Positions 957 to 18,732 of a stretch of DNA of 19,441 bases are shown in pieces. The DNA is from Candidatus Thorarchaeota archaeon (lineage in GTDB: Archaea; Asgardarchaeota; Thorarchaeia; Thorarchaeales; Thorarchaeaceae). How positions within the stretch are numbered: position 1 is the stretch's first letter; every line of letters starts with the position of its first letter. The stretch spans positions 1 to 19,441 of the forward strand of contig JBHLRQ010000057.1 of the NCBI GenBank assembly GCA_048882385.1, in the 5' to 3' direction. Both the position numbers and the translations under genes were made by a program. The notes beneath the pieces are model-generated. The model saw only the letters and a program-made list of their open reading frames with translations, was not told the DNA's origin and searched no databases.

Positions 957-1057
957 CGGGTAATTACCCAACTGGAACTTTAGAGCACCTTTCCTCTTTT
1001 GCAACAGTCAATCTTGAATTTGAGCGAACTCTCTGTTCCATCTAAAAGGCAACAATC
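957..1057 (+). repeat. Degenerate intergenic repeat copy A (extended right part)
   Basis: cgggTAAt as in copy B, then agagcacctttcctcttttgcaacagtcaa and gaactctctgttccatctaaaaggcaaca, which matches 18628-18732. Confidence 0.65.
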
Positions 1058-1134
1058 TCTTCATTATGCTCATTTGTCCCTTAGATTTATGAAACATGTT
1101 GTAATAATTTGCCAAAGAAACAGGGTGATTAATA

Positions 1135-2268
1135 TTGAAAACTAGTCTAGAAAAGAAAGTCTTCAGCAAACGCATTGCAAACTGCTCCAAAGCAATGAAT
1201 GAAGAAGGACAAGACGTCCTTCTATTGACAAAACCATCCAACATGTATTATTTCACAGGGGATGGACGTCTCTGTGCTTTTGTAATGATTAGTAGTGACC
1301 AACAGGTTGCAATCGGCGTTCCGCAAACCGATGTAGAAGATGTGACTGATTTGGCACATTTTGATCACATCCTTTCCTTCGAGGATGAAGTAGGTATGAT
1401 CCATTCGATTGCAAAGTTCTTCAGACAGTTTGGAATCAGCAAGGGGGTCGTTGGACTGGAACATACTTTCCTGACCAGTTCGATGATGAAGATGCTTACA
1501 CACCCACATGCCAAACCAGAAGCAGTGACCGTTGCTGACTGCACTGACATTCTCTCGAAACTAAGAACAGTGAAAGACAGCATTGAGATAGAATTGATGA
1601 AAGAGGCAGGACGGATTGCTGACTTAGGGATGGAAGCTGCAATGACTTCTATCAAGGTTGGGATGACAGAGAGCCAGATTGCAGGAGAAGGCGAATACGC
1701 AATGCGTCAAGCTGGTGCTGAAGGGTTCTGGCGTTCCTATGTTGCAAGTGGATCACGGACACGAATTGCACATGGCATTCCCACAAGTCGTAAGGTGCAA
1801 AAAGGCGATATCATCATGATTGACCTTCATCCCTTCGTCAATAATTACTCGTCTGACATCTGTCGATTAGCCTGTATAGGAGAACCAGCAAAAGATCAGA
1901 TCAAAGCATATGATGTATACTTAGAAGCATTACAAAAGACGACAGCGAAATCAGTCGCAGGAATCGATATGGTCGAGCTCGAAAAGACACTTCATGGTGT
2001 CATTCAGACTGCTGGTTATGGGGAGAACATCTTTGGTCCTCCTATCCATGGAATCGGTATTAACTTCGAAGAAGCTCCACTACCTCCTGGTCATGCTTTC
2101 TTCCATGGTGAAAAAGCACCTCCACCTTTAGAAGAAAATACAACTATTGCCATAGGAAATTGCGGAATCTATTCCAAACATTGGGGAATAAGAATAGAGG
2201 ACACTGTTGTAATTGGAAAAAGATCCCCCTTGGTATTGACAAACTATTCACGTGATTTGAAATTGTAA
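1135..2268 (+). CDS. M24 family Xaa-Pro aminopeptidase/prolidase-like protein
   Basis: Creatinase-type N-domain (NMYYFTG) and LRTVKDSIEIELM. Motifs HG, MIDL, YSSDICR, IHGIG and GIRIEDTV. AGGGTGA RBS before the TTG start. Confidence 0.9.
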   Translation: MKTSLEKKVFSKRIANCSKAMNEEGQDVLLLTKPSNMYYFTGDGRLCAFVMISSDQQVAIGVPQTDVEDVTDLAHFDHILSFEDEVGMIHSIAKFFRQFGISKGVVGLEHTFLTSSMMKMLTHPHAKPEAVTVADCTDILSKLRTVKDSIEIELMKEAGRIADLGMEAAMTSIKVGMTESQIAGEGEYAMRQAGAEGFWRSYVASGSRTRIAHGIPTSRKVQKGDIIMIDLHPFVNNYSSDICRLACIGEPAKDQIKAYDVYLEALQKTTAKSVAGIDMVELEKTLHGVIQTAGYGENIFGPPIHGIGINFEEAPLPPGHAFFHGEKAPPPLEENTTIAIGNCGIYSKHWGIRIEDTVVIGKRSPLVLTNYSRDLKL

Positions 2269-2340
2269 GTCAATAGAGGAATCATTGTTGAAGAAATCTA
2301 AGCATTGAAGTCCGAGTAGGAGTAGATATTTTGACCTCTC

Positions 2341-2428
2341 CCTAGATGATTATGAAGTAAAGGTTGACAGGGTCGGGTAATCAGGGACCTTTCCCTAGCC
2401 GTTCACTGTTGAGCACCCTTTCATTTTC
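2341..2428 (+). repeat. Degenerate intergenic repeat copy B (reference copy, 88 bp)
   Basis: cctagatgattatgaagtaaaggttgacagggtcgggTAAtcagggacctttccctagccgttcactGTTGAGCaccctttcattttc, with an internal AGGGA/TCCCT hairpin. Confidence 0.85.
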
Positions 2429-2477
2429 GTTAAATATATGGAGAATAGCTTCGATGCATTAGGATTTGATTTGTGAT

Positions 2478-2495
2478 TCATGTCTAATGACGGTA
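2478..2495. promoter_or_regulatory. Partial match to the Bat-HTH-associated palindrome upstream of the DGC gene
   Basis: tcatgtctaATGACGGTA: the right half-site matches the consensus TACNGTCATATGACNGTA. Confidence 0.4.
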
Positions 2496-2560
2496 TTGTA
2501 GTATAGCAAATTCGACATAGCTACATATTAGCACAGTTTGAAGACATAGAAAATGTGAGT

Positions 2561-3034
2561 ATGCTTATGAGAGAACCGAATACAGATTTTACTCTAGAGG
2601 TAACAGGAACTAGTAGGCGGTGTCCCATTGGAGAGAAAACTGGTGCTCAATATATGTCGGAGAAGAAAACACCTATTCTCGCCTGTGCAGGAGCATGTAT
2701 CCGAGGGGAAATCGCTCGATTAGCCGCGAACATAGTTTCGAAAAACGACGGGTTTCGACATGCATGTCATGGCGAAGTACTCACTGTCCCGGGGTCGGGA
2801 TTTGATAATTGGGTAGCAGCAGCAGACAAAGTCATACTAATCGACGGATGTTTCATGCGATGTTGGGGACGGATTTTAGAAAATCTGATTCCTGAAGAGA
2901 AGTTGGTTCAATTCGATGCTTTATCTCATTATAAGAAGTATACGAATCTATTCGACATTGATGCTGTCCCTGAATCTGAAAGGAATCAAGTAGCACAAAG
3001 TGTGGCTAGTTGGGTACTTGCCAGTATGGAATAG
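2561..3034 (+). CDS. DGC-domain putative zinc-binding protein
   Basis: CAGACIRGEIARLAA, ACHG and IDGCFMRC motifs. The start could be 2555, 2561 or 2567. Confidence 0.85.
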   Translation: MLMREPNTDFTLEVTGTSRRCPIGEKTGAQYMSEKKTPILACAGACIRGEIARLAANIVSKNDGFRHACHGEVLTVPGSGFDNWVAAADKVILIDGCFMRCWGRILENLIPEEKLVQFDALSHYKKYTNLFDIDAVPESERNQVAQSVASWVLASME

Positions 3035-3040
3035 GATGCC

Positions 3041-3065
3041 CATTGCTGAGTCCCTGCCATTTTCC
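3041..3065 (+). repeat. Degenerate repeat copy C (3' motif only)
   Basis: cattgctgagtccctgccattttcc resembles ctgttgagcaccctttcattttc. Confidence 0.45.
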
Positions 3066-3080: not shown

Positions 3081-3764
3081 TTAATGTGCGCGCCGGAAAA
3101 GCTGGATATATGGTATGAGTGCCGCCACTAACTTTCCTTCCGCTTTCTTCAAATGATCGACAAATGTAGTTCTTGGAACATGCAACCTCTTCGCTATTGT
3201 CTGAACATTCGCTCTTCTTGGAAAACTGAAGTATCCGTGAGAGTACGCGGTGACTAGAGCATCCATTTGCCTATCCGTCAGTTCTGAAAACAAAGTATCT
3301 GCTGTCATCGCTATTGAGCTGATGAACGAACCACTGTACGGTTTCTTCCGTATTATTTCGACATCAAAATGTTCAGTTGCGAGATTCTTCATCAACTTCG
3401 TGATATCTTCATGCTTGAACGCAACTATCCTATAGTATTCCCAACCCTTCTCATAATACACTGGGTTGAATTCGAGGAAGTTCAACTCCTCGAGATAGCG
3501 GCTCACAGATCCAGGTTCTAGACAGGAACATGATTTCGTGACCAAATGTACCCTGTCGCTATCTGATACCTCATTCATGATATTCATGGTTTTCTCCAAA
3601 TCACCCCGAATGCTGGAGTATTCGTCCTGATTCCGAATAACTAACTCTAGGACATCGTGCTCACGATTACACCATTGAAATATCTTCAAAGATGGATGCT
3701 TGCGTGAAATGTTTCCAATTGGACAATCATGACTGACTTTGAATGTGACCTCGAAGAGTGGCAT
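3081..3764 (-). CDS. Bat-type (bacterio-opsin activator, HTH_10) transcription regulator
   Basis: C-terminal LTDRQMDALVTAYSHGYFSFPRRANVQTIAKRLHVPRTTFVDHLKKAEGKL; N-terminal HDCP. Confidence 0.9.
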   Translation of the reverse strand: MPLFEVTFKVSHDCPIGNISRKHPSLKIFQWCNREHDVLELVIRNQDEYSSIRGDLEKTMNIMNEVSDSDRVHLVTKSCSCLEPGSVSRYLEELNFLEFNPVYYEKGWEYYRIVAFKHEDITKLMKNLATEHFDVEIIRKKPYSGSFISSIAMTADTLFSELTDRQMDALVTAYSHGYFSFPRRANVQTIAKRLHVPRTTFVDHLKKAEGKLVAALIPYIQLFRRAH

Positions 3765-3798
3765 ACCCTTTCACTGTTTCAATCCAATATATAGTATT

Positions 3799-3843
3799 AG
3801 CAGTAATATTACGTTTAGATTTAACTACCGTCATATTACGCTA
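3799..3843. promoter_or_regulatory. Tandem palindromic operator-like sites in the divergent promoter
   Basis: agcaGTAATATTACgttt (3799-3816) and TACCGTCATATTACGCTA (3826-3843) resemble 14329-14346. Confidence 0.55.
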
Positions 3844-3887
3844 CAATATTAAACTGAGTTCTGGGTATCTATAATCATGTGATTATC

Positions 3888-4103
3888 ATGGCGTGTGAAA
3901 CAAGTTATGTATCAATAGAACGTAAAGTCACAATTCGAGATGACGAAGAGCCAGTCGATACATCCATCCGTCTGAACAGCGATGGGAACAAGGCTGAACA
4001 GATTAGGGCGTCGCGTGGGAGGATGTACCTTAAACGCAATCGCAATGATCGATACAGGACATCTGGAAGGGCTCTCTTGTTTGCGGCTTCCTTTAACAAA
4101 TAA
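3888..4103 (+). CDS. Small hypothetical protein (71 aa, basic C-terminal half)
   Basis: ATG at 3888, downstream of an AT-rich TATA-like stretch (aatattaaa, about 3845-3853) and divergent from the regulator. No recognisable family. Confidence 0.5.
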   Translation: MACETSYVSIERKVTIRDDEEPVDTSIRLNSDGNKAEQIRASRGRMYLKRNRNDRYRTSGRALLFAASFNK

Positions 4104-4118
4104 TGCGGAAGACATGAA

Positions 4119-4262
4119 ATGCAAGAACTGCTATCTGTATTGCTTTTCCCGCCTCTATTTGTTATTGGATTTTTCAGCGGAATTGCGTCGTTACTACTCG
4201 GTTATAGAGAAGACCTGAGAGTCTTCGCAAGGAGAATTAGAAACAATCGATCAAATGATTGA
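4119..4262 (+). CDS. Small single-pass membrane protein (47 aa), below the ORF-track cutoff
   Basis: MQELLSVLLFPPLFVIGFFSGIASLLLGYREDLRVFARRIRNNRSND*: a hydrophobic helix followed by an Arg-rich tail. It fills the gap between the neighbouring ORFs. Confidence 0.6.
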   Translation: MQELLSVLLFPPLFVIGFFSGIASLLLGYREDLRVFARRIRNNRSND

Positions 4263-4278
4263 GAAGGAGGTGAAACAG

Positions 4279-4506
4279 ATGGGATGCGGAAGTGCAACGA
4301 GAAAGAGAAAATCTAGAGCAACTGTGAGAAATCCTGAGAGAATTGGTCGCGGTACATCAGCTATTCTGATGCCTCGAGTTCCACAGAAATGCTTCAACTG
4401 TGGGGCGAGCATTCACACTGAAAAGGTGAATTGGATTGGCCCAGATAGAATAGAGTGTCCATACTGCGGACAAGCCTTAACGGTTGAATTCGAAAAAGTG
4501 GCTTGA
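4279..4506 (+). CDS. Small zinc-ribbon protein
   Basis: Strong RBS AGGAGGTGA before ATG 4279. CFNC...CPYC pairs and a basic N-terminus. Confidence 0.8.
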   Translation: MGCGSATRKRKSRATVRNPERIGRGTSAILMPRVPQKCFNCGASIHTEKVNWIGPDRIECPYCGQALTVEFEKVA

Positions 4507-4526
4507 ATGGGTGCAGAGGCAGCGGT

Positions 4527-4593
4527 GAGATAGAGTATTTAGGGAAATACCCTTCTCACATTGCTGAACCTCTTTCCATTTTTCAATCATCAA
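4527..4593 (+). repeat. Degenerate repeat copy D
   Basis: gagatagagtatttAGGGaaataCCCTtctcacattgctgaacctctttccatttttcaatcatcaa. Confidence 0.65.
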
Positions 4594-4604
4594 TGTTTTT
4601 GATA

Positions 4605-5183
4605 CTATCTGGAGTTTGCAGTATCACCTTTCGGAAGAATTCCATATCGCTGAACAAATTCACTCTTGATGATGTCCATAATAGCTACATCGTCTCGTTT
4701 TCCATTAATGTATGCTCCTTCTCTAAGAAATCCCAATTTCTGAAATCCAATCTTCTCATAGAAACTGATCGCATGTTGATTGAATTTGTAGACAAAGAGA
4801 TAGACATTATGTAATCCCAAAATGTTGAAAGTAAAATCGAGCAGAACCAACATAGCATCTTTTCCGTAGCCCTTTCCTCTATTGTTTTTGTCAAAGATTA
4901 CCAAGTTATCAATCATACCAGTACCACTGATCCAGTTGACGTTAGATACATCTATGAATCCCACTAGTTTCCGTGTTGTTTTGTCTTCAATGCCGAATGT
5001 GAAGACATATCGACCCGCAAAGCCTTCATTCCTCGATGAAATAAAATCCTGAATCTCCTTGTGTGTCTTGGGAAATGGATTTGGGAAATATTGCCTGACT
5101 TGATATTCATTCCAGTGTTCAAGTATGATGTCTGCGTCTTCAAGCTCTAAACGTCTTAGCTTTACTGTTTCCCCTTGGTACAT
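4605..5183 (-). CDS. GNAT acetyltransferase, RimJ/RimL family
   Basis: Likely start at ATG 5183 (MYQGETVKLRRLE). Motifs NRGKGYGKDAM, LGLHNVYL and NQHAISFYEKIGFQKLG. Confidence 0.9.
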   Translation of the reverse strand: MYQGETVKLRRLELEDADIILEHWNEYQVRQYFPNPFPKTHKEIQDFISSRNEGFAGRYVFTFGIEDKTTRKLVGFIDVSNVNWISGTGMIDNLVIFDKNNRGKGYGKDAMLVLLDFTFNILGLHNVYLFVYKFNQHAISFYEKIGFQKLGFLREGAYINGKRDDVAIMDIIKSEFVQRYGILPKGDTANSR

Positions 5184-5320
5184 TAGAATCAGATAGGCGT
5201 ACTTCTCTCTAATTTTAACTATATGGAAGTGCGCTGGTTTATGCAATCGATAAGAAAGGTCATCGCAATTAGAAATTCATCTCAGAATAACTTCAGAACT
5301 TAGTATCTTCCATCATTTAT

Positions 5321-5408
5321 CCTAGATGGGCTTTTGGTGTAGACTGAAAGAGTCCGGTGAACAGGGAACTTTCCTACTATCATCAGTTTAGCTACCCTTT
5401 TCATTTTC
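5321..5408 (+). repeat. Degenerate repeat copy E (88 bp, colinear with copy B)
   Basis: cctagatg...agactgaaagagtccggTGAacagggaactttcct...gtttagctacccttttcattttc. About 55/88 ungapped identity to copy B by hand count, with the stop at the same offset. Confidence 0.85.
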
Positions 5409-5497
5409 CATTTGACATAGTATTGAGAAGATATATCACGATTCATCATACCTACCAAATGAAGTGAATCCTAGTTTCATTTCACTGGCGAACAAGA

Positions 5498-7429
5498 TTG
5501 ACATATGTCTACATGAAAGCTCTGGAATCAGCTCCAGAACGCTATGACAAAGGAATTAGATGGCTTGGTTGGCTAAAGTTAGATAGTATTCGTAACCATA
5601 TTGCTGACATAATTGAAGCTGAAGCAGAAAATGTACTTGAGATAGGAGCTGGTACTGGCACTCAAGCTCTTCTACTTGCAAAACGGGGTTTAGAAGTTAC
5701 AGGTTTAGACCACTCTTCTGGTATGCTGGCAATTGCTCAAGGAAAGATGGACTCTCTCGAAAAGGAGGAAGGTGAAACAGAGATTGGATCTAGAGTTACA
5801 TTATTGCACAAAGCCGCAGTGGAGCTAGATGAGTTCCCTCATGACTCATTTGATGCGGTCACATCAACACTTGTCCTATCTGAACTTGATCCATCTGAAC
5901 AACGATATGTGCTATCTCATGCGTTTCAGATAATAAAACCTGGAGGCATATTAGTACTAGCTGATGAAGTGATACCACGCCGGGCTTCGACAAGACTGGC
6001 ACATTCGTTGATTTCTGCTCCGCTGAAACTTATCACCTACGTGGTGACTCAGACTTCAACAAAGGCTGTTCGAGATTTAGATAGCATAATTGAGGAAGCA
6101 GGATTCGAAATCGAATCGATTGATAATTATCAGTTAGACTCTTTCCAGCTAATCATTGCAAGAAAACCAAAGGACTCTGATACAGGAGGAGAACCCATCC
6201 CGTCAATTAAGTTCAAACCTATCAAACCCCCATCCGGGGGATTACTTTCCACTTTTTGGGAAACAGCTGCAAGAATGATTGGACATTCTACACAGATTGG
6301 TCTCATCCCTGTGGGTGAACCGACCCCAGATAGCCCCGTACTCTGTACCTGCAATTTCCACTTAACAGTCCGCCGCCTCTATAAACTCTTGAAAACCTCG
6401 AAAATCAACTCCTGGATCCTTGTGGCTCCAACAGATGGCATTAACGTCTGGTGTGCGTCTTGTGGGAAAAACTTCAATGCAGGATCTGTCATTACAGCAA
6501 TCAAAATTTCAAGCCTTGAGAAGTACGTTAACCACCGTAGAATAATACTACCACAACTGGGAGCCTCTGGAATTGACCCAAAGAAAGTAAGTCAGATCAC
6601 AGGATGGCATTGTATCTGGGGTCCAGTGCATATGGAGGACATTCCTAGTTTTCTATCTGATTTCCCAAAATCAGTCCGAAACAAAACAGAGAAGCAGAGA
6701 AAAGTTCGATTTGGTATTGTCAACCGATTGGAGATGGCATCTGCATTATTCTTTCCAATATTGCTGTTATTGATGTTGCCTCTGTCCTTGATTCTCCTTT
6801 TCCTGAATCAAGAGGTTTGGATCATTCCCATACTTTTTACTATGCTGAGCCAGATTTACGGTCTCTTTCTGTTTTGGCCACTAATACCATCTAGATTGGG
6901 CACAAGCAAGACAGCAATCTGGTCATTAGTAATCATTGCTCTGATTTCTTTGGGTTCATGGTATACTACTGATATTCTTGAATTTCCTTATCCAAATGAA
7001 CCATCTTTCCAAGACTTTCTTGCTATTCTCAACTACTGGCCAGTATTGGTTTTTGCGCTCATTCTAATGGCTATCCTCATATATGATGCAGATGGGATGA
7101 CTCCTACACTTCGGTCGTCATTAGCAGCACGAAGTTGGAACAAAGGAAATACAGAGATACAAGAAAGATGGGGGAGTTCCTATTCCCTACTACCCTATGG
7201 AGAGATTTCAGCCATTTTGGATTCATGTAATGGTTGTGGAGTTTGTGTTGATGTTTGTCCTATGTTGATCCCTTCTGTGAATGAAGAAAGCAGAAAGGTC
7301 CAGTTAAGAACACCAGAAAGATGTGTTAATTGTCGAGCCTGTGTAAACCGATGTCCTGAGAACGCTCTATTCCTGAAGCCTGAAACAGAAGCTGCAAAGC
7401 AAGCCCTTCTCAAATTACAACTGAAATGA
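5498..7429 (+). CDS. Fusion of class I SAM methyltransferase, HgcA/CdhD-like corrinoid domain, multi-pass membrane region and 2x[4Fe-4S] ferredoxin (HgcAB-like)
   Basis: VLEIGAGTG SAM motif. Corrinoid-domain motifs PTPDSPVLCTCNFHLT, TDGINVWCASCGK and HRRIILPQLGASG. About 4 hydrophobic helices. Ferredoxin motifs CNGCGVCVDVCP and CVNCRACVNRCP. Confidence 0.85.
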   Translation: MTYVYMKALESAPERYDKGIRWLGWLKLDSIRNHIADIIEAEAENVLEIGAGTGTQALLLAKRGLEVTGLDHSSGMLAIAQGKMDSLEKEEGETEIGSRVTLLHKAAVELDEFPHDSFDAVTSTLVLSELDPSEQRYVLSHAFQIIKPGGILVLADEVIPRRASTRLAHSLISAPLKLITYVVTQTSTKAVRDLDSIIEEAGFEIESIDNYQLDSFQLIIARKPKDSDTGGEPIPSIKFKPIKPPSGGLLSTFWETAARMIGHSTQIGLIPVGEPTPDSPVLCTCNFHLTVRRLYKLLKTSKINSWILVAPTDGINVWCASCGKNFNAGSVITAIKISSLEKYVNHRRIILPQLGASGIDPKKVSQITGWHCIWGPVHMEDIPSFLSDFPKSVRNKTEKQRKVRFGIVNRLEMASALFFPILLLLMLPLSLILLFLNQEVWIIPILFTMLSQIYGLFLFWPLIPSRLGTSKTAIWSLVIIALISLGSWYTTDILEFPYPNEPSFQDFLAILNYWPVLVFALILMAILIYDADGMTPTLRSSLAARSWNKGNTEIQERWGSSYSLLPYGEISAILDSCNGCGVCVDVCPMLIPSVNEESRKVQLRTPERCVNCRACVNRCPENALFLKPETEAAKQALLKLQLK

Positions 7430-8045: not shown

Positions 8046-8069
8046 GAATCGTTTGAAGAGTGTTGACAG

Positions 8070-12251: not shown

Positions 12252-12270
12252 TTTGATTGAGTGCCACCTG

Positions 12271-12345: not shown

Positions 12346-12936
12346 CTACCGATCATTCAATCCCTTTCCATTGAGAATTTGCTGTGTATATTTCTCAACC
12401 CTTGACATCCGAGTTTTGGATTGTTTGGGTGCAGAAAAATAAAGAAGGTATGCTCTTTGCCGCCCTGGTGTCAGTGCATCAAAAGCAGTTTTCAAGGCAG
12501 GTATTTCATCTAATTTAGAGCGAAATTCTTCAGGAATTGTGTATTCTGTGGTCTTCTTGAAATCCACTTTCAAACCAGCTTTTTCCACTTCAATGGCATC
12601 GTGAATATAGGCTTTCAAGATGGGTTCCATCTCAACTATCTCTCGAGCATTGGTGAACCTAATCTGGCGCGTCGCTTGCGTATTATCTGTTTGTGATATT
12701 AGAATACTATTGGCATCATTTAGCAAGGCACCTTTGAAAAACAAAAGCGCACAGTATTCTTTGAAACCATGTATCAAAACTATGTTACTCTTCTGAAACG
12801 TGTAACAAGGTTTCCCCCACTTGAATTCCTCGGTCAACCCACTGTCAAGAACAATCTTTCTCAGTTTCTTAAATTCATCCTGCCACTTTTTGGCTTTACT
12901 AAGAAATGCATCAACCTTAGGATTCATTTTATTCAT
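12346..12936 (-). CDS. ydeI: YdeI/OmpD-associated family protein (DUF1801 + OmdA-like)
   Basis: EEFKWGKPCY, GFKEYCALLFFKGALL and LTPGRQRAYLLYFSAPKQSKTR. Confidence 0.9.
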   Translation of the reverse strand: MNKMNPKVDAFLSKAKKWQDEFKKLRKIVLDSGLTEEFKWGKPCYTFQKSNIVLIHGFKEYCALLFFKGALLNDANSILISQTDNTQATRQIRFTNAREIVEMEPILKAYIHDAIEVEKAGLKVDFKKTTEYTIPEEFRSKLDEIPALKTAFDALTPGRQRAYLLYFSAPKQSKTRMSRVEKYTQQILNGKGLNDR

Positions 12937-13013
12937 TTATTGACCTTCTGAAATATGATGAACTCATATCCGCTTACAGTTTCTTTTTCTTATTTAACAA
13001 GATATTCGTAGCG

Positions 13014-13088
13014 GAAGCTGAGGATGGAAGAGGATGAGAATCATTCTCATCTTGCATCAATGATTTTCTGATATCGAGCACTGTCTCT
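13014..13088 (+). repeat. Degenerate repeat copy I with a perfect palindrome
   Basis: gaagctgaggatggaagaggaTGA; palindrome GATGAGAATcATTCTCATC (13033-13051); later atcgagcactgtctc. Confidence 0.5.
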
Positions 13089-13138: not shown

Positions 13139-13525
13139 TTGGAGAATAGAAAGATGATTGAAGAACTGGAAAAGGTTCGAGAAACAGTCAATACCTATCT
13201 GGAGGCAGTGAAACACAGGGACTGGAATAAGTTTCAAGAGTCATGGCATCCTGAGGCAAGGATGAGTTATGTAAAAGATGGTGAGCCTCAGTCTGTTCCT
13301 CGATCGTTTTGGGAAGACTGGTGCAAGAAACCGATAGAAACACAAGAAAAGAGGACCAGTACGATACCATCGATTGATGTGACTGGAAACATCGCAGCCG
13401 CAAAAGCAATTACACTTCGTGAAACACCTGATGAGAGAATGATATTCATAGACTACTTGACTCTTCTTCAAGATGACAATAAATGGCAAATCATTAGCAA
13501 GTCATACACTACTAAATTGATTTGA
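13139..13525 (+). CDS. NTF2-like (putative lumazine-binding) family protein
   Basis: WHPEARM, IDVTGNIAAAK and DYLTLLQDDNKWQIISK. The start may be 13154. Confidence 0.85.
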   Translation: MENRKMIEELEKVRETVNTYLEAVKHRDWNKFQESWHPEARMSYVKDGEPQSVPRSFWEDWCKKPIETQEKRTSTIPSIDVTGNIAAAKAITLRETPDERMIFIDYLTLLQDDNKWQIISKSYTTKLI

Positions 13526-13553
13526 GAGAATTGACAGAACCCAGTTTTCCAAA

Positions 13554-14294
13554 TCAGGTTTCTTCTGAAATGCTTTCCTCAAGAGGGGCCGGATGGCTCC
13601 CTCTCTGTCCGGAAAAATGATGCCATGTATGAAGATGGGGGATAAGTGCCTGGATTATTTTGTTTTCTGCTTTCCGTAAGTGTTCTTGAAAGGTTGTTCT
13701 TCTGACTCCAACACTGTCTGATATAGTCTTGACATCAGCATCTCTGGGTATTCTGTAGTACCCATGAGAATGAGCAGTGAGAACAGCATCTGTCTGCAAT
13801 TCTGTTAAACCTTCAAACAATGTTTCTGTTCGTACTGTCATTGATCCTGACGCTGAGAATCCATTGAATGGGATTTTGCGAAGAATCCATGGCATGTAGC
13901 TGCACTCCCGAAACTCTTCTATCAGCTTGGTGATATCTTGCTGTCTGAAGGCAAGCACTCGGTGATATTCCCATCCCCCGTAGTAACTAACTGGTGCTAG
14001 GTGTAGAATACCAAGCTCAGACGAACAATCTTCAATGACTCTGTCTACTCCGCAAGGAATTGCTTTTGAAATGAGGTGGTTCTGATACTCATCTCCAACA
14101 TGATCAATGACACCATCAAGTGCACTTGCACTTTCTATCATGTCTGGTTTTTCAGTTCCATCTCGAGAAAACACCTCTATAATCTCGTGATTTTTAATAA
14201 TCCACTTGTGGATGCCTGTCAGAGGATATTTCGTTGAGAATTCTGCTAATCTGCAATTGTGCCGTATCTTGAATTCCAGTTCTAATATTGCCAT
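13554..14294 (-). CDS. Bat-type (HTH_10) transcription regulator, paralogue of 3081-3764
   Basis: LTELQTDAVLTAHSHGYYRIPRDADVKTISDSVGVRRTTFQEHLRKAENKI; shares GWEY.R..AF with the paralogue. Confidence 0.9.
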   Translation of the reverse strand: MAILELEFKIRHNCRLAEFSTKYPLTGIHKWIIKNHEIIEVFSRDGTEKPDMIESASALDGVIDHVGDEYQNHLISKAIPCGVDRVIEDCSSELGILHLAPVSYYGGWEYHRVLAFRQQDITKLIEEFRECSYMPWILRKIPFNGFSASGSMTVRTETLFEGLTELQTDAVLTAHSHGYYRIPRDADVKTISDSVGVRRTTFQEHLRKAENKIIQALIPHLHTWHHFSGQRGSHPAPLEESISEET

Positions 14295-14346: not shown

Positions 14347-14409
14347 TCCCCAAAATAACTAATGAAGCAAAGAATACAAGCAAATAGAGCAGATGAACCT
14401 CTAACTGTT

Positions 14410-14478
14410 AAAAGGTTGAAGCCGACGGGATCAGTTAGTCAGAGAGTTTTCTCATCACTCAACCTGTTGAGCATTTTG
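14410..14478 (+). repeat. Degenerate repeat copy J
   Basis: aaaaggttgaagccgacgggatcagtTAGtcagagagttttctcatcactcaacctGTTGAGCatttt. Confidence 0.75.
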
Positions 14479-14484
14479 TAAAGA

Positions 14485-16860
14485 CTAACGCATAGATTTC
14501 TGAAATCTACCAATAATCTCATCTTGAACAGCTTTTCCCAAATCTACATAATATGCACTGTAGCCTGCAACTCTTACAACTAGATTTCTATATGAGTCGG
14601 GATTTGCTTGCGCTTTAAGAAGAATTTCTGGTTCAATGAAGTTGAATTGAATATGCATTCCTCCTAGTTCTACGTAAGAGTTCAGTATTGAGATAAGAGA
14701 TTGCAATCCCTCTTCTCCTTCTGCAAAACCAGGGTCTAATGCGAGTGTGAAAGCCACTCCATTGGGATGGAGTGCAAAATCAACACTTGTGACTGAATTA
14801 AGAACTGCAGTCAAACCCTTTGAAGGAGCTGATATTACAGGAGAAACACCATTACTCAGAGGAGTTGATGGTAATCGCCCACTAGGCAGCGCACCTGTGA
14901 ACAGACCAAACGCTACGTGTGTGGTCACGGAATACATGCCAGAGATGAATGATCCTCCTCTAATGTTCGTGTGTTTTTCTACCTCTTCACTATATATGCG
15001 TGCCACGAGTTTGGCATAGTCGTCCACGAATTTCTCATCATTTCCGTACTTAGGCGCTTTATTTTGTAGTAGTTGTCTGAGTGGCTCATGGTCCTCGAAT
15101 CCATCCCTTAGAGCAGCTATGAGTTCACTCATGCTTACTTTCTTCTCCCTGAAGACGATTTGGTCTATTGCTGCGAGAGAGTCAGCAACATCAGCCAAAC
15201 CAACTCCCTGAACACCGGTGAAGTTGTACCTTGCAGAACCAGTTGTGATATCTTGACCGTTCTCAAAACAGTCCTCTATACAAAGTGAGAGCAGAGGGGT
15301 TGGCATCATCTCCATATTCAACTGTTCAAAAGAGTTAGACCCCTCTGCCATGAGTCCCACCAAATATGAAACTTGTTTTCGAAATGCCTGAATAACGTCA
15401 TCTATTGATTGCCACGTCGTGGGATCTCCTGTGTTTAGCCCAAGTTCTGATCCTAATAACAGAGTTTCGCCGTCATTCAGTGCAAGCTCCAAACACATGG
15501 CGAGGTTGAAGAGTGCCGCATCTGATGATGTGAAACTTGTACCAAACGGGGCTAGCTCCACACACCCAACAGTTGCATAGTTCCTTGCCTCCTCTTTTGG
15601 AATTCCTTGTCTTTCCCATGATTTGACAACTATTTCATCGTTGAAGACTGCAATATTATTCGCACCTGATACAATGACTTCTGCAATCTTTTTCATTAGA
15701 GCTGGCGGACTACTTTGATGAATCCGGACATGGACATTGGGTAGGGGGAGTCCAACATTCTTAGTTGCATCTAGAATCAGATAGGTCATGTCGTTTGTTG
15801 CATCAATTCCCTCTTTATCGATACCCCCAATTGTTACTGCTTGGGTAGTTAATAGTCCTTCAAAATACATTCCTGTGAAGCTATCAAATGCCGGGACATG
15901 CTCATTTGTCTTGATCCAGAGCATTTCAACAAGCTCAAGTGCTTCTTCCCTCGTCAGTGTTCCAGATTCAATATCTTTCTCGTAGAATGGTTGAAGGTAT
16001 TGGTCAATCCTTCCCATTGAGATTGCTTGACCGTCATAGGTTTCGATGGTGAGAGCAAGGTGTGTGAATCTAATGAACTGAATAGCTTCATGAAAGTTCT
16101 TTGGTGGTTTTGCAGGAACTTGTTTACATATCTCAGCAATTCTCTCTAGCTCTTTCTTTCTCTTGATATCGCTCTCTTCCTTGGCCAATATCGCTGCTCT
16201 TTCAGAATATCGATTCGCAAATTGGATTATTGCATTGGCTACAATTCTAGTGGCTTTATAGAAATTAATCTTGGCGAGAACCTCTGTATCTGTTGTTTTG
16301 CTGTATTCTCTAATTCGTTCTTCTGCCAATTTCTTGAATTCTTCAAAACCCATCGAAAAGAGCATCGGGTAGTTTACACTCAAGTGGCCAAAACCAGCGA
16401 TTTCTGTTAGAATAAAAACAGAACCCGCATACAAAGTTTCTAATATTTTTTCAGGAGTTTTCTTATCAGCCTGTGCAATCAAGGATGCATCAGCCCAATA
16501 TGAAGCAATCTCTTCTTGTACAGCTCTGATGTCATCTTGTGTGACTTCTATCACTCGGCAATCTCTTGATTTTAGCTCTTCAAGCTCTGGAACTATTCGT
16601 GAATCATGAGCTTCTGGATAAACCATTGCACCCCGAACCTTGTCCGAAACACTACCTACAACCAGCTCATCGGGGTATATCTTCAAAGAGATGCCCATCA
16701 GTATGTTTGCTAGTGCCTTTGCTTGCCGGATTATTTGAGGTTCACCCTCGGTTGATTTCATTGAATCAGTATGTAATTTAGTCCTTTCAATACTCAAATG
16801 TGTCTTAGATTCAAGAATGCGACTCAGCATTATTTGGCTTCTTGAGGTCACTTCTCTCAC
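14485..16860 (-). CDS. Glycyl radical enzyme, PFL2/glycerol dehydratase-like family
   Basis: Single-Cys loop VGCVE, Gly loop LVVRVAGYSAY, and motifs SMGRIDQYL, PKYGND and HIQFN. Confidence 0.92.
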   Translation of the reverse strand: MREVTSRSQIMLSRILESKTHLSIERTKLHTDSMKSTEGEPQIIRQAKALANILMGISLKIYPDELVVGSVSDKVRGAMVYPEAHDSRIVPELEELKSRDCRVIEVTQDDIRAVQEEIASYWADASLIAQADKKTPEKILETLYAGSVFILTEIAGFGHLSVNYPMLFSMGFEEFKKLAEERIREYSKTTDTEVLAKINFYKATRIVANAIIQFANRYSERAAILAKEESDIKRKKELERIAEICKQVPAKPPKNFHEAIQFIRFTHLALTIETYDGQAISMGRIDQYLQPFYEKDIESGTLTREEALELVEMLWIKTNEHVPAFDSFTGMYFEGLLTTQAVTIGGIDKEGIDATNDMTYLILDATKNVGLPLPNVHVRIHQSSPPALMKKIAEVIVSGANNIAVFNDEIVVKSWERQGIPKEEARNYATVGCVELAPFGTSFTSSDAALFNLAMCLELALNDGETLLLGSELGLNTGDPTTWQSIDDVIQAFRKQVSYLVGLMAEGSNSFEQLNMEMMPTPLLSLCIEDCFENGQDITTGSARYNFTGVQGVGLADVADSLAAIDQIVFREKKVSMSELIAALRDGFEDHEPLRQLLQNKAPKYGNDEKFVDDYAKLVARIYSEEVEKHTNIRGGSFISGMYSVTTHVAFGLFTGALPSGRLPSTPLSNGVSPVISAPSKGLTAVLNSVTSVDFALHPNGVAFTLALDPGFAEGEEGLQSLISILNSYVELGGMHIQFNFIEPEILLKAQANPDSYRNLVVRVAGYSAYYVDLGKAVQDEIIGRFQKSMR

Positions 16861-16960
16861 TCCTGATTTCTTTCAACGCTCGTCCATATATCTCATGTCA
16901 ATCTGTCTGTTGTCTCTGTTAAAGAATTTGGATTCATAATGGATATTCTAAATTGGCAAT

Positions 16961-17032
16961 AGATAGAGTCTTTCAAGTTCCTCTCACTGTTGAGTGCGCA
17001 TTCCCTTTTGTATTAGTCCGATTATTTGAGCA
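16961..17032 (+). repeat. Degenerate repeat copy K
   Basis: agatagagt (shared with D), then ctctcactGTTGAGTgcgcattcccttttg and atttgagc (shared with A). Confidence 0.65.
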
Positions 17033-17149
17033 GAAGTAATCCTATCCATCTCAACATGTTTTTGATTCTACGAATATGGTCACATTGTGCCCAGAATTTT
17101 CAAAATATGTGACCAGTCAAGAATATTCTGAACTCAAAGGTGAGATAAA

Positions 17150-17767
17150 TTGAATACAAATGAAAATGTTGACAGTCTTGGTGAAGAAACTCCAGAAATT
17201 CCTGGAGTTGATCCAAATAAATACGAAGTCACTCCTTTTCAAGAAATAATAATTCACGAAATACCGTCTGGTTCGGTTCTTGATATTGGATCGGGAGGTG
17301 AAGGAGTCATAGCTCAAATCGGAGGAGAACGGATAACAGCAATTGATAAACGACAATCAGAGATTGATGAAGCTATTGACAAAGCTCCTGACGCAAAATG
17401 GATGGTAGCCGATGCCTTAGATTTACCATTTGACGATGAGGAGTTCGATAATGCAACATCTTTCTTCAGTGGAATGTACATGAGTCATGAGGATAAGAGA
17501 GAAGTTATCAAAGAAGTTCATAGAGTACTACCAGCTGGAGGCGAGTTTTGGATTTGGGATTCAAAAATCAAAACCAACAAAGATGGATTCCTAATCGTTT
17601 TGACTATATCAATCCCCGGTAAAGAGAAAATCAATACTGGATATGGTACAAGCATCACAAATCAAGATGAGGATATTTACAAGAAATATCTCAACGAAGC
17701 AGGTTTCTCTATAGAAGAAATAGAAGTGACGGAACATTGGTTCTTTATTAGAGCACAGAAAATTTAG
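17150..17767 (+). CDS. Class I SAM-dependent methyltransferase
   Basis: VLDIGSGGEG, DALDLPFDDEEFD and EVHRVLPAGG. AGGTGA RBS before TTG. Confidence 0.88.
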   Translation: MNTNENVDSLGEETPEIPGVDPNKYEVTPFQEIIIHEIPSGSVLDIGSGGEGVIAQIGGERITAIDKRQSEIDEAIDKAPDAKWMVADALDLPFDDEEFDNATSFFSGMYMSHEDKREVIKEVHRVLPAGGEFWIWDSKIKTNKDGFLIVLTISIPGKEKINTGYGTSITNQDEDIYKKYLNEAGFSIEEIEVTEHWFFIRAQKI

Positions 17768-17880
17768 CAGAAAACGCCTAATTCCACTTTTCTGAGTTGA
17801 AAGAAGCATGGGCTTATGATGACTGGGAACGCGATGCAATCGCTAAATAGTCCCTATTCTAAACTAGAAAATTGTACTGA

Positions 17881-17906
17881 TTGTTAAGCATTCTTTCTCT
17901 TTTGCA
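17881..17906 (+). repeat. Degenerate repeat copy L (3' motif)
   Basis: ttGTTAAGCattctttctcttttgca. atgggcttatgatgactg at about 17808 also echoes copy E. Confidence 0.6.
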
Positions 17907-17958
17907 TTATTTTCGTTGAACTACACGCTTATTACTAGTCAATCAATCCTCTCCTAGC

Positions 17959-18528
17959 ATGAGTAAAATCCTGATTCTAAATGGGAGTGCAAGAAGAAAG
18001 GGTAACACCCGTTTCCTGATCAATCAGATAAATGATGTACTAGGAGAGAGAGGACTGGAATCAAAAATCCTTCATCTTCATGAACTCAACATCAATAACT
18101 GTCGAGGATGTTTCTGGTGCTACAAGGGGTTCCCACTACGATGTGTTCAAGAAGATGATGATATGAATAGCATTTACCCTGAAATAATCGAAGCTGACAT
18201 CATTGTTTTTGCATCGCCTATTTACTGGTTCAACTATTCTGGCCAATTGAAATTGTTCATTGATCGGTTAGTCGCATTGCATGTTAAAGGTGGTCACAAG
18301 TTGGATGGAAAGCGATTTGCTGCAATCTTCGTTTATGGCGACACCAATGTGGAGGAGTCTGGTGTTCAGCATGCTATTGATTCGATCAAACATCTAATAC
18401 GATATATGAAAGGAGAAACTTTAGGGATTGTCCATGGAACTGCAAATGATATTGGGGATGCTGAGAAGAATACAAGACTGGTTGCTGAGGTTCGTGAACT
18501 AGCTGGCAAGATTTGTGAAGCATCTTAG
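17959..18528 (+). CDS. Flavodoxin-like iron-sulfur flavoprotein / NAD(P)H-dependent FMN reductase family
   Basis: GSARRKGNT, CRGCFWC...C, ASPIYW and LKLFIDR. Confidence 0.9.
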   Translation: MSKILILNGSARRKGNTRFLINQINDVLGERGLESKILHLHELNINNCRGCFWCYKGFPLRCVQEDDDMNSIYPEIIEADIIVFASPIYWFNYSGQLKLFIDRLVALHVKGGHKLDGKRFAAIFVYGDTNVEESGVQHAIDSIKHLIRYMKGETLGIVHGTANDIGDAEKNTRLVAEVRELAGKICEAS

Positions 18529-18627
18529 ACAGTCGTGCGTGTTTCTTCAAGACCCGTTTTGCATCCATCCAACTTGGAGCATCTTTGCCATTGTTGATTG
18601 TTTGAGTGATTGATTTACGTGAATATG

Positions 18628-18732
18628 CTGTTGAGCACTCTTTCATTTTCAACAATCAACTAAATCACAATTTTACAGGTTGGCGAGAATACGAAAAATG
18701 TGAATCTCTCTGTTCAATTTTGAAGGAACATC
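18628..18732 (+). repeat. Terminal repeat copy M abutting the larE stop
   Basis: ctGTTGAGCactctttcattttcaacaatcaa...gaatctctctgttcaattttgaaggaaca, colinear with copy A. Confidence 0.8.

What the first reader, a model, noticed from the sequence alone, without database searches (positions are those of the whole stretch)
957..18732. Integron-like cassette array: about 14 co-oriented degenerate repeats separate unrelated 1-4 gene blocks, with no integrase in view
Seen: one repeat family recurs, always on the + strand, at about 957, 2341, 3041, 4527, 5321, 7466, 8451, 10855, 12271, 13014, 14410, 16961, 17881 and 18628. These are the junctions between functionally unrelated blocks: pepP | DGC | HTH + 3 small ORFs | GNAT | MTase-HgcAB | SRPBCC + ABM | CPBP to DinB | esterase | ydeI | NTF2 + HTH | GRE | MTase | flavoprotein. 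Repeat orientation is independent of gene orientation, so these are not simply promoters or terminators of the cargo. The best-conserved part, ctGTTGAGCacyctttcatttt, contains GTTRRRY, the established tyrosine-recombinase core of integron attC/attI sites, and follows an AGGGA/TCCCT hairpin. Unlike canonical integrons, the cargo lies in both orientations, appears to carry its own TATA-like promoters, and conservation continues past the GTT. Inference: a gene-capture or accretion platform I cannot match to a described system.
Basis: partly seen in the sequence, partly recalled or inferred. Interest (0 to 1): 0.9.

Follow-up and report, generated by a model that had tools for sequence, protein, structure and literature searches.

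The report
Gene cassettes stacked behind 16S rRNA
The repeats are decaying copies of the stretch that follows the 16S ribosomal RNA gene, and in these Asgard (Thorarchaeota) archaea they mark a growing stack of swappable gene blocks behind that gene, apparently built without any integron-type enzyme.

Summary
A co-oriented repeat family of about 95 nt separates unrelated gene blocks; strong copies lie on only 5 of the genome's 256 contigs.

The integron reading does not hold. The repeat is a copy of the 3' trailer of the 16S rRNA gene: the 3' strand of the pre-rRNA processing stem plus a T-rich tail. Some copies also carry the last 8-52 nt of 16S itself.

In four same-genus Thorarchaeota genomes with an assembled 16S 3' end and enough sequence behind it, the array starts right after the 16S gene and runs downstream. 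The repeat occurs in 24 of 24 genus genomes searched.

Between species the blocks are reordered, gained or lost at the repeats. Several are far more alike (82-93% nt) than the chromosomal background (70-78%).

The repeats have no attC-type hairpin or R'' partner, and no recombinase sits near the arrays (20 of 28 genus genomes lack a tyrosine recombinase match, 20 of 28 a serine one). The 23S rRNA gene, with an unrelated trailer, shows the same architecture in 7 of 20 family genomes. Mosaic copies show crossovers inside the trailer.

Best reading: an rRNA-anchored, homology-driven gene-accretion island. This is a new variant of the islands known at tRNA genes.

The parts
3..752 (-). MerB-like (alkylmercury lyase) ORF, running off the left end. 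The window's first 77 nt are identical to the right end of contig C154, so C154 lies directly upstream.
   Evidence: Pfam PF03243, E 4.5e-12; 77-nt 100% contig-end overlap
975..999 (+).
   Evidence: Matrix score 15.3 bits; nhmmer within-window E 0.27
1135..2268 (+). Block: M24 peptidase (PepP-like)
   Evidence: Pfam PF00557 and PF01321
2314..2431 (+). Full 16S-trailer copy, the best one in the window
   Evidence: nhmmer E 4e-21 genome-wide; R1 E 2.3e-23; extended model E 1.2e-16
2555..3034 (+). Block: DGC-domain protein. It is 92.6% nt identical to G013, where the neighbours differ.
   Evidence: Pfam PF08859; blastn window 2376-3050 matches G013rc 10605-11279; boundary alignments
3040..3065 (+).
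   Evidence: Read directly; homology with G013 ends here
3081..4506 (.). Block: HTH_10/HVO_A0563_N regulator (3081-3764, - strand) plus small ORFs (3879-4506, + strand)
   Evidence: Pfam; ORF list
4509..4599 (+). Degenerate trailer copy
   Evidence: Extended model E 4.7e-4; matrix score 15.1 bits at 4559-4582
4605..5246 (-). Block: GNAT acetyltransferase
   Evidence: Pfam
5316..5432 (+). Full trailer copy in which the GTTGAGC core has mutated
   Evidence: Extended model E 4.9e-11; R1 E 1.4e-12
5498..7429 (+). Block: fusion of a methyltransferase, a CdhD/HgcA-like domain and a 2x[4Fe-4S] HgcB-like domain. It is 92.1% nt identical to G013 and 79% to G005.
   Evidence: Pfam; blastn
7471..7505 (+). 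5' part of a trailer copy, truncated after about 35 nt. G013 has the full copy at the matching place.
   Evidence: nhmmer within-window E 7.6e-4; boundary alignment
7596..8456 (+). Block: SRPBCC-like ORF plus a 128-aa ORF
   Evidence: Pfam; syntenic with G013
8453..8502 (+). Degenerate trailer copy
   Evidence: nhmmer within-window E 0.011; matrix score 9.0 bits
8501..10820 (.). Block: CAAX protease (- strand), a 104-aa ORF (- strand), a 227-aa ORF (+ strand) and DUF1706/DinB (+ strand). Together with 7596-8456 it forms one 84.8% syntenic stretch with G013.
   Evidence: Pfam; blastn window 7546-10819
10841..10937 (+). Full trailer copy
   Evidence: R1 E 4.1e-15; nhmmer
11085..12251 (+). Block: esterase with TPR repeats
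   Evidence: Pfam; homology with G013 ends at 12252
12253..12276 (+). Weak.
   Evidence: Read directly; breakpoint; no model hit
12346..12936 (-). Block: DUF1801/YdeI-OmdA. G017 carries it together with the following 16S fragment, at 84.9% identity.
   Evidence: Pfam; blastn window 12352-13061 matches G017rc 32009-32716
12993..13068 (+). Copy of the 3' end of the 16S rRNA itself. It includes a mini-insert of about 30 nt of the kind present in G015's own 16S.
   Evidence: Extended model E 9.7e-7; 87.5% to G015's 16S 3' end; true 16S contigs of two runs lie on 12995-13028; read directly
13139..14294 (.). Block: NTF2/lumazine-binding-like ORF (+ strand) and a second HTH_10 regulator (- strand)
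   Evidence: Pfam
14402..14479 (+). Trailer copy lacking the T-rich tail
   Evidence: R1 E 1.9e-12; alignment
14485..16860 (-). Block: glycyl-radical enzyme (PFL-like). It is 83.4% identical to G013, where it directly follows the esterase block.
   Evidence: Pfam; blastn
16945..17011 (+). Trailer copy with an internal deletion
   Evidence: Matrix score 14.3 bits; alignment with G013's copy
17150..17767 (+). Block: SAM methyltransferase
   Evidence: Pfam
17800..17905 (+). Trailer copy of a foreign type: it carries the insert found in G012's native trailer
   Evidence: Matrix score 18.0 bits at 17879-17902; marker of the G012-type insert at window 17826; alignment
17959..18528 (+). Block: FMN reductase. 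It is 82.5% identical to G004, where it lies between two other repeats.
   Evidence: Pfam; blastn window 17889-18538 matches G004rc 6368-7017
18626..18650 (+). Copy of the trailer's 3' part only
   Evidence: Matrix score 31.4 bits; nhmmer within-window E 0.0025
18734..19441 (-). Conserved ORF of unknown function, running off the right end. It is present in every compared genus genome at background identity (74.7-78.1%).
   Evidence: No Pfam hit; blastn

Best explanation
The window is the middle of a gene-accretion island that lies directly downstream of the unlinked 16S rRNA gene of a Thorarchaeota (Asgard) archaeon.

Each 'repeat' is a copy of the 16S 3' trailer. The trailer consists of a small hairpin, the roughly 65-nt 3' strand of the pre-16S processing stem (which ends in GTTGAGCC), and a T-rich tail. 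Some copies also carry the last 8-52 nt of the 16S rRNA.

How it most likely works (inferred): incoming DNA that carries an rRNA-3'-end or trailer segment next to cargo genes recombines by homology with the resident 16S end or trailer, or with any older copy of it. A single (Campbell-type) crossover leaves the rRNA gene intact and duplicates the trailer. Each event therefore adds one block and one co-oriented copy. Recombination between copies then deletes, replaces or reorders blocks. The older copies decay, or are partly re-converted to the resident trailer type.

The rRNA 3' end and trailer are by far the best-conserved homology between species whose chromosomes are only 70-78% identical. 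They can therefore act as a genus-wide landing pad, with no dedicated integrase required.

Shown: the identity of the repeat; the position of the arrays; reshuffling at the repeats; excess similarity of the cassettes; mosaic copies; the same pattern at the 23S gene.

Inferred: the form of the intermediates (circle or linear fragment) and the enzymes (general homologous recombination).
For: 1. The repeat is the 16S trailer.
- In G017 (243-kb contig) and G005, a full-length 16S (RF01959) ends 12-25 nt before the first copy, and all further copies follow downstream on the 16S strand.
- G012 and G015 show the same. G042 shows the native trailer only, because its contig ends there.
- Cofolding the 16S leader with the trailer pairs the repeat core with the 5' leader. 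The leaders also give weak reverse-strand hits to the repeat model.

2. Distribution.
- 24 of 24 genus genomes searched have the repeat, against 0 of 16 genomes from other families. By my reading of the 150 listed rows, every contig with two or more listed matches has them all on one strand (33 rows were not shown).
- Other genera of the family have copies of their own trailer downstream of their own 16S: G074 has 5, G065 has 5, G156 has 1. That is 3 of 9 family genomes examined. Of 10 genomes from other families, only G054 showed one extra copy.

3. Reshuffling at the repeats.
- Window and G013 share six blocks, in a different order and with different neighbours. The homology ends at the repeats.
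- Across seven arrays, the left ends of shared blocks that lie near a core fall 0-110 nt after it. The right ends fall 11-110 nt before the next core, or at it, and never 31-150 nt after one.

4. Horizontal exchange.
- Cassettes are 92.6, 92.1, 91.9, 84.9 and 82.5% nt identical to other species.
- The background, from three 6-kb chromosomal segments, is 76-78% (G013) and 70-76% (the others).
- The ORF at 18734-19441 is at background level.

5. Homology-driven rather than core-specific.
- Extra co-oriented copies of [23S 3' end + 23S trailer] lie downstream of the 23S gene in 7 of 20 family genomes.
- In G012, one such unit plus its gene (1028 nt) is 94.5% identical to G014's native 23S end, trailer and first downstream gene.
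- The orthologous 16S-array copies in G012 and G017 are mosaics. The 5' half is a foreign, G015-like 16S fragment with a mini-insert. The 3' half is each host's own trailer type.
- In G017, 6 of 6 array copies are 89-99% identical to the resident trailer, while native trailers differ by 14-25% between species.
- Trailer types are mixed within single arrays.
- The 5' ends of the copies vary, while their 3' ends are constant.

6. No recombinase.
- PF00589 gives no match in the own genome. It matches in 8 of 28 genus genomes, and PF00239 in 8 of 28. Neither matches in G000, G017, G005, G013 or G012.
- None of the 20 integrase matches lies on a contig with a listed trailer copy.
- No ORF from an integrase locus has a homologue in the arrays.
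Against: - These are all MAGs. The own genome has no assembled 16S or 23S, so adjacency to 16S is shown in relatives and only inferred for this genome.
- A recombinase could sit on unassembled or unbinned DNA, on a virus or plasmid, or belong to a family I did not search.
- Arrays are seen only on the 3' side of the rRNA genes. In G005 and G017 the 5' side is a conserved M1 aminopeptidase gene. Pure homologous recombination does not obviously predict this asymmetry.
- Block homology often starts right at or after GTTGAGC, as a site-specific core would give. It is also the longest well-conserved stretch, so homologous crossovers would tend to resolve there too.
- How a new gene first comes to lie next to a trailer is not explained.
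- The background identity rests on only three segments, and genes differ in constraint.
- The Logan-contig joints at the repeats are ambiguous. They may reflect better-preserved repeat copies in other strains rather than rearrangements.
Confidence: 0.62

Rival explanations
1. Serial site-specific integration by elements that carry or borrow an integrase and use the rRNA 3' flank as attB. This would be the rRNA counterpart of tRNA-anchored islands such as those built by Prochlorococcus tycheposons. The integrase genes would since have been lost, be rare and transient, or act in trans from viruses or plasmids.
For: - The architecture matches tRNA islands: an intact RNA gene, followed by direct partial copies of its 3' end, with newer insertions pushing older ones outward. 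This is described in passages of bioRxiv 10.1101/2020.12.28.424599.
- Block homology often starts at the GTTGAGC core.
- Tyrosine and serine recombinases do occur sporadically in the genus, each in 8 of 28 genomes.
- Integrase-bearing elements are also rare and transient in the Prochlorococcus case.
Against: - No integrase or integrase remnant was found in any of the seven arrays examined.
- 0 of 20 integrase matches shares a contig with a listed trailer copy.
- The blocks are only 0.6-3 kb.
- The copies have variable 5' ends.
- Crossovers lie in mid-trailer, with resident-type 3' halves.
- Two unrelated trailer sequences (16S and 23S) are both used.
- 0 of 25 IMG/VR loci that share a 17-mer with the trailer hold a real trailer copy.
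Confidence: 0.22
2. A true integron or CALIN: the repeats are attC sites recombined at GTT by an IntI-type tyrosine recombinase that lies outside the assembled contigs.
For: - The repeats are co-oriented and separate unrelated genes.
- GTTGAGC fits the GTTRRRY pattern.
- Archaeal integrons, mostly CALINs, are reported as enriched in Asgard archaea (PMC9668308; abstract and passages).
Against: - No conserved fold on either strand.
- No R'' partner.
- Conservation runs about 20 nt past the core.
- Cargo lies in both orientations, with 1-4 genes per block.
- The array begins at the 16S gene, and the repeat is the 16S trailer.
- No PF00589 match in 20 of 28 genus genomes.
- The 23S gene shows the same pattern with another sequence.
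Confidence: 0.04
3. A MITE/REP-like or regulatory repeat (for example a terminator or insulator module) that spread by transposition or local duplication, with no role in gene capture.
For: - The T-rich tail looks like an archaeal terminator (inference only).
- The copies are intergenic.
Against: - The copies are confined to 5 of 256 contigs and to one strand.
- They have no terminal inverted repeats and no fold.
- Some include pieces of the 16S gene.
- Synteny breakpoints coincide with them.
Confidence: 0.05
4. An assembly artefact: chimeric joins between co-occurring Thorarchaeota strains at a shared repeat.
For: - Contigs break at the repeats. C227 and C154 overlap by 77 nt inside a repeat.
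- Several relatives' contigs end just after an rRNA gene.
Against: - The copies are only about 64% identical on average, and the exact core is no longer than about 25 nt.
- Arrays occur in 24 of 24 genus genomes searched, and inside a 243-kb contig.
- Logan contigs from runs of two studies bridge individual repeats in the window with 0-19 differences: X3 records 19 and 21, and X9 record 27. X3 may be the source sample.
Confidence: 0.03

Closest known systems
tRNA/tmRNA-anchored genomic islands built by repeated integration (for example the Prochlorococcus islands and tycheposons; bioRxiv 10.1101/2020.12.28.424599, passages read)
   Same: - An intact, conserved RNA gene sits at one end.
- Co-oriented partial copies of its 3' end are scattered through a hypervariable island.
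- Newer insertions push older ones outward.
- Cargo is adaptive or accessory, and content differs between close relatives.
   Different: - The anchor is the 3' end and trailer of an rRNA gene (16S, and also 23S), not a tRNA.
- The blocks are very small (1-4 genes), with 20 or more per array.
- No integrase or integrase remnant was seen in or near any array.
- The junctions and mosaic copies point to homologous crossovers.
Sedentary chromosomal integrons and CALINs, including those reported in Archaea (PMC9668308; abstract and passages)
   Same: - Long arrays of co-oriented repeats separate unrelated small cassettes.
[quoted passage not shown]
- Cassettes are shared between species.
- A GTTRRRY-like motif lies at the block boundary.
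   Different: - The repeats have no attC fold, no R''/L'' arms, no IntI and no attI.
- They are copies of a functional pre-rRNA element.
- Cargo lies in both orientations and appears to use its own promoters.
Homology-facilitated illegitimate recombination, or one-sided homologous anchoring of foreign DNA (de Vries and Wackernagel 2002; Prudhomme et al. 2002; seen only as cited in a passage of PMC8504540)
   Same: A conserved stretch in donor and recipient serves as the anchor that carries adjacent non-homologous DNA into the genome.
   Different: - It was described for bacterial natural transformation in the laboratory.
- It is not known to build ordered arrays with anchor duplications.
- The junction microhomologies were not examined here.

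Membership tests
Integron | IntI-type tyrosine recombinase next to the array | tested here: not met
   PF00589 gives 0 matches in the own genome (95% complete). It matches in 8 of 28 genus genomes, and none of those 20 matches lies on a contig with a listed trailer copy. In G005 the gene upstream of 16S is an M1 aminopeptidase. MAG incompleteness limits this test.
Integron | attC sites: imperfect inverted repeats (R''-L''...L'-R') that fold as single strands | tested here: not met
   RNAalifold predicts 0 pairs on either strand for the 14 copies, and single-copy z-scores are mostly between -1 and +1. RYYYAAC lies upstream of 7 of 58 cores, against 8% of random positions; 0 of 58 have the exact reverse complement. 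IntegronFinder itself could not be run.
Integron | GTTRRRY core at the cassette boundary | tested here: met
   GTTGAGC is the best-conserved part of the repeat, and block homology often begins at or after it. It is explained, however, as the base of the 16S processing stem.
Integron | attI insertion point beside intI; mostly promoterless cassettes in one orientation | tested here: not met
   The array begins at the 3' end of the 16S gene. The window's blocks lie on both strands and hold 1-4 genes.
RNA-gene-anchored genomic island (tandem integration type) | Intact RNA gene followed by direct partial copies of its 3' end | tested here: met
   Shown in G017, G005, G012 and G015. Copies that include the last 8-52 nt of 16S are listed. 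The 23S gene shows the same in 7 of 20 family genomes.
RNA-gene-anchored genomic island (tandem integration type) | Element-encoded integrase, or remnants of one, inside the island | tested here: not met
   tblastn of ORFs from six integrase loci of the genus against seven arrays gave no hit. Pfam scans of 23 window ORFs, 6 C154 ORFs, 4 C40 ORFs, 10 G017 ORFs and 10 G005 ORFs showed no recombinase.
MITE / REP element | Copies scattered over the genome in both orientations; terminal inverted repeats | tested here: not met
   Strong hits lie on 5 of 256 contigs, on one strand per contig. No fold was found.
Known RNA families (Rfam 15) | Match to a curated covariance model | tested here: not met
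   0 matches at E <= 1 over the window plus four own-genome loci.
Homology-driven (integrase-free) accretion | Donor-type flank co-transferred with the anchor; crossovers inside the shared homology | tested here: met
   G012 carries G014's native 23S end, trailer and first gene at 94.5% identity. The mosaic 16S-array copies have host-type 3' halves. G017's copies are 89-99% identical to its own native trailer.
Homology-driven (integrase-free) accretion | Illegitimate (microhomology) joint at the far end of each insert, or circular intermediates | not tested
   Junction microhomologies were not analysed. The runs available were contigs, which cannot show circles.

The most novel reading that the evidence does not exclude
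Thorarchaeaceae run an integrase-free gene-capture system. The 3' ends and trailers of their unlinked 16S and 23S rRNA genes are the only long stretches that stay near-identical across species. They would serve as universal homology pads, through which small gene cassettes are inserted, stacked, excised and passed between species. That would be functionally an integron, but built from housekeeping recombination and a pre-rRNA processing element.
Probability: 0.45. Interest if true: 0.85.

Novelty: new variant of a known kind. Interest (0 to 1): 0.78.

Why it matters
- It identifies a previously undescribed hot spot of gene flow in Asgard archaea, the closest archaeal relatives of eukaryotes. 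The flank of the rRNA genes acts as the landing pad.
- If the process really needs no dedicated recombinase, conserved RNA genes alone can organise integron-like cassette exchange between species whose chromosomes are only about 75% identical.
- It warns that arrays of this kind can look like integrons or CALINs to motif-based readers and software.
- It explains why contigs of these MAGs break at the rRNA genes, and why 16S is so often missing from them.
- The cargo here is environmentally relevant: MerB, an HgcAB-like fusion, a glycyl-radical enzyme, and detoxification-type enzymes.

My literature searches found no description of rRNA-anchored cassette arrays. The library lacks most subscription journals, so this is not proof of absence.

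Tried and rejected
Steps that led nowhere, and negative results:
- Rfam scan of the window and four own-genome loci at E <= 1: no match.
- Conserved secondary structure of the repeat on either strand: none found.
- Search for viruses carrying the trailer. Two 17-nt patterns returned 25 IMG/VR loci, and none held a real trailer copy when scored with the models.
- Logan contigs of four runs.
  - The joint '2421 goes back to 1' is explained by the C154 repeat upstream of the window. It is not a circle.
  - '2427 skips to 4602' (X3, depth 7.6 against about 37) and the three X11 joints have only about 37-41 nt on one side, and that side lies inside a repeat. They may be other strains' better-preserved repeat copies rather than deletions or rearrangements, so I do not count them as evidence.
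  - Parts without cover in X10 say nothing.
- The pooled summary of HSP ends is diluted by many HSPs outside the arrays. I used only the pattern among ends that lie near a core.
- Considered and dropped for lack of any support: a CRISPR array, origin (ORB) repeats, IS200/IS605-type ends, casposons, Tn7-like homing, and RNA-mediated (reverse-transcription) capture.
- Not done: searches for HUH/Y1 transposases, TnpB, IS110 or Cas1 families; IntegronFinder or HattCI; analysis of junction microhomology; structure predictions; the protein-database searches (none was needed).
- Supplementary files were not consulted. Data S3 of PMC9668308 might list Thorarchaeota MAGs among its CALINs.

Full report

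The window is a whole contig (C57) of a 3.7-Mb, 256-contig MAG that is 95% complete.

An nhmmer profile seeded from three copies and iterated on the genome found 14 strong copies. Their E values against the whole genome run from 1e-6 to 4e-21. They lie on only five contigs (C57, C154, C227, C226, C40), always on one strand within a contig. Elsewhere in the genome there are only E >= 3 hits, on either strand.

Four window copies are strong: 2314-2431, 5316-5432, 10841-10937 and 14402-14479. Seven more are degenerate or partial.

I built a weight matrix for the 3' part of the repeat only from 35 copies in other genomes. It gave 8 hits on the window's + strand, 1 on the - strand, and a mean of 0.18 per shuffle.

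- 3041 is a short 3'-part remnant, sitting at a synteny breakpoint.
- 12271 is a faint likeness only, also at a breakpoint.
- 13014 is a different piece of the same source: the 3' end of the 16S rRNA itself.

The left-end ORF, however, matches MerB, not LarE.

**2. What the repeat is.**

Rfam gave nothing, and there is no conserved fold on either strand.

A sequence-only covariance model (R1) matched 24 of 24 same-genus genomes searched. It matched 0 of 16 genomes from other families of the phylum. The matches were again clustered and co-oriented per contig.

G017 has the array inside a 243-kb contig. Reading upstream of its first copy showed the end of a 16S rRNA gene. Rfam places full-length 16S genes so that they end 12-25 nt before the first repeat in both G017 and G005. 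G012, G015 and G042 agree as far as their contigs reach.

Cofolding the 16S 5' leader with the 3' trailer shows what the repeat core is. It is the 3' strand of the long processing stem, and GTTGAGCC forms the base of that stem. It is followed by an unpaired T-rich tail. The leader gives weak reverse-strand hits to the repeat model, as its complement should.

Record titles of relatives name the group as Candidatus Thorarchaeota.

The own genome has no assembled 16S. Contig-end overlaps of 77 nt chain the contigs as C227 -> C154 -> window, and as C226 -> C40 -> C43. The C227/C154 overlap lies inside a repeat and is therefore uncertain. The C154/window overlap lies inside the MerB gene. Taken at face value, the own array spans at least 28.6 kb with about 20 copies.

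**3. Behaviour of the blocks.**

Window and G013 share six stretches at 75-93% nt identity, but in a different order:
- G013: esterase | repeat | glycyl-radical enzyme | repeat | conserved ORF.
- Window: the YdeI, NTF2+HTH, methyltransferase and FMN-reductase blocks are interposed in that run.
- Window: the DGC-to-DinB run precedes the esterase run; in G013 it follows it.

The FMN-reductase block recurs in G004 between two other repeats. A C154 block recurs in G005 at 91.9% identity.

The boundary alignments give a consistent picture:
- Block homology starts at or just after the GTTGAGC core.
- It ends at the 5' edge of the next repeat, or at that repeat's core.
- The 5' part of a repeat goes with the upstream context.

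Background identity, from three 6-kb chromosomal segments, is 76-78% to G013 and 70-76% to G004, G005, G017 and G012. Several cassettes are therefore much more alike than the chromosomes that carry them, which indicates exchange between species. The ORF at the window's right end is at background level.

**4. Why not an integron.**

Defining features fail on several counts:
- There is no attC-type fold and no R'' partner.
- The own genome has no IntI or any other PF00589 match, and neither do 20 of 28 genus genomes. Serine recombinases are equally sporadic.
- No integrase match shares a contig with a listed trailer copy, and the arrays contain no integrase homologues.
- The array begins at the 16S gene, whose upstream neighbour in G005 is an M1 aminopeptidase.

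**5. Mechanism.**

Four results point to homology rather than a sequence-specific core.

(a) The 23S rRNA gene is unlinked; in G017 it lies 70 kb from the 16S gene. Its trailer is unrelated in sequence. Yet it shows the same architecture in 7 of 20 family genomes examined. In G012, one 23S-side unit and its gene are 94.5% identical, over 1028 nt, to G014's native 23S end, trailer and first downstream gene. The next copy is 97.7% identical to G012's own.

(b) The orthologous 16S-array copies in G012 and G017 are mosaics. The 5' half is a foreign-type 16S fragment with a mini-insert of about 30 nt. That insert is absent from both hosts' own 16S but present in G015's. The 3' half is each host's own trailer type. 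A crossover or a conversion tract inside the trailer would leave exactly this pattern.

(c) G017's six array copies are 89-99% identical to its native trailer, whereas native trailers differ by 14-25% between species. Trailer types are also mixed within single arrays.

(d) The 5' ends of the copies vary, from 52 nt inside the 16S gene to about 50 nt into the trailer. Their 3' ends are constant.

The simplest model is a Campbell-type or one-sided homologous insertion of DNA that carries an rRNA-end or trailer segment. Later recombination and conversion among the copies would follow.

Several things remain open:
- why the arrays lie only on the 3' side of the rRNA genes;
- how cassettes are born;
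- whether a trans-acting recombinase helps.

**6. Spread.**

Other genera of the family carry copies of their own 16S trailer behind their own 16S. This holds for 3 of 9 family genomes examined, and several of the other six had under 5 kb of downstream sequence.

Ten genomes from other families showed none, except one unexplained extra copy in G054.

**7. Literature.**

- The archaeal-integron paper reports integrons, mostly CALINs, enriched in Asgard archaea. A word search of its main text found neither 'rRNA' nor 'Thorarchae' (PMC9668308; abstract and passages).
- The Heimdallarchaeum mobile-element paper holds nothing on rRNA-linked arrays (PMC8813620; passages).
- The closest analogue is the tRNA-anchored Prochlorococcus islands (bioRxiv 10.1101/2020.12.28.424599; passages).
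- My searches found no description of rRNA-anchored cassette arrays.

**8. Verdict.**

The integron interpretation is replaced by an rRNA-trailer-anchored accretion island. This is a new variant of RNA-gene-anchored islands.

- The identity of the repeat is nearly certain.
- The island behaviour is well supported.
- The integrase-free, homology-driven mechanism is the best-supported inference, but it is not proven.

Noticed in passing
window 5498-7429 (+) and 3-752 (-): A 643-aa fusion of a SAM methyltransferase, a CdhD/HgcA-like corrinoid domain and a two-[4Fe-4S] HgcB-like domain lies in the same array as a MerB-like organomercurial lyase. Mercury-related cargo therefore travels as cassettes. 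The fusion block is 92% identical to G013 and 79% to G005.
   Followed up: partly
L036 (G015:C131, 16S 3' end), L060 (G156), L061 (G083); copy at window 12993-13068: Some species carry an insert of about 30 nt inside the last helix region of their 16S rRNA, just before the conserved ...TCACCTCCT end. Array copies of this variant occur in genomes whose own 16S lacks it (G012, G017).
   Followed up: partly
G014:C73, G036:C1, G150:C2, G069:C5, G122:C71: The 16S matches span 2.3-3.6 kb for a 1478-position model, which suggests large insertions (introns?) in the 16S genes of several Asgard genomes.
   Followed up: no
whole genus: 20 of 28 genus genomes, including one 97% complete in 50 contigs, have no PF00589 match at all. 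An XerA-type chromosome-dimer resolvase therefore appears to be missing, or too divergent to detect. Serine recombinases are also absent from 20 of 28.
   Followed up: no
L103 (G012:C34 downstream of 23S), L102 (G001:C17), L120 (G074:C46), L108 (G065:C120): Small arrays of copies of the 23S rRNA 3' end plus trailer bound short blocks downstream of the 23S gene. G012 holds a unit that is native to G014, at 94.5% identity.
   Followed up: yes
L066 (G054:C1, another family; complete genome): A second co-oriented copy of the first 118 nt of the 16S trailer lies 6.9 kb downstream of the 16S gene (E 8.6e-22). Its nature is unexplored: it could be an rRNA-operon feature or the same phenomenon.
   Followed up: no
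window 18734-19441 (-); paralogue on C154 at about 3766-4473: A conserved ORF with no Pfam family is present in all six compared genus genomes at background identity. It lies near or within the array, and the own genome has a 73%-identical paralogue inside the array.
   Followed up: no
window 3081-3764 (-) and 13554-14294 (-): Two paralogous HVO_A0563_N + HTH_10 regulators (38% aa identity over about 200 residues's table) sit in different blocks of the array.
   Followed up: no
window 14485-16860 (-): A 791-aa glycyl-radical enzyme travels as a single-gene block, with no activating enzyme in the window.
   Followed up: no
contig ends in relatives: Many family contigs end within 0.03-3 kb after an rRNA gene (for example G150, G097, G055, G009). 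This fits repeats behind the rRNA genes breaking the assemblies, and it may contribute to the frequent absence of rRNA genes from these MAGs.
   Followed up: no
L004 604-3336 (-) (own contig C40, just past the last repeat): A 910-aa STAND NTPase (DUF4062, NB-ARC and TPR domains) lies directly after the distal-most repeat copy.
   Followed up: no
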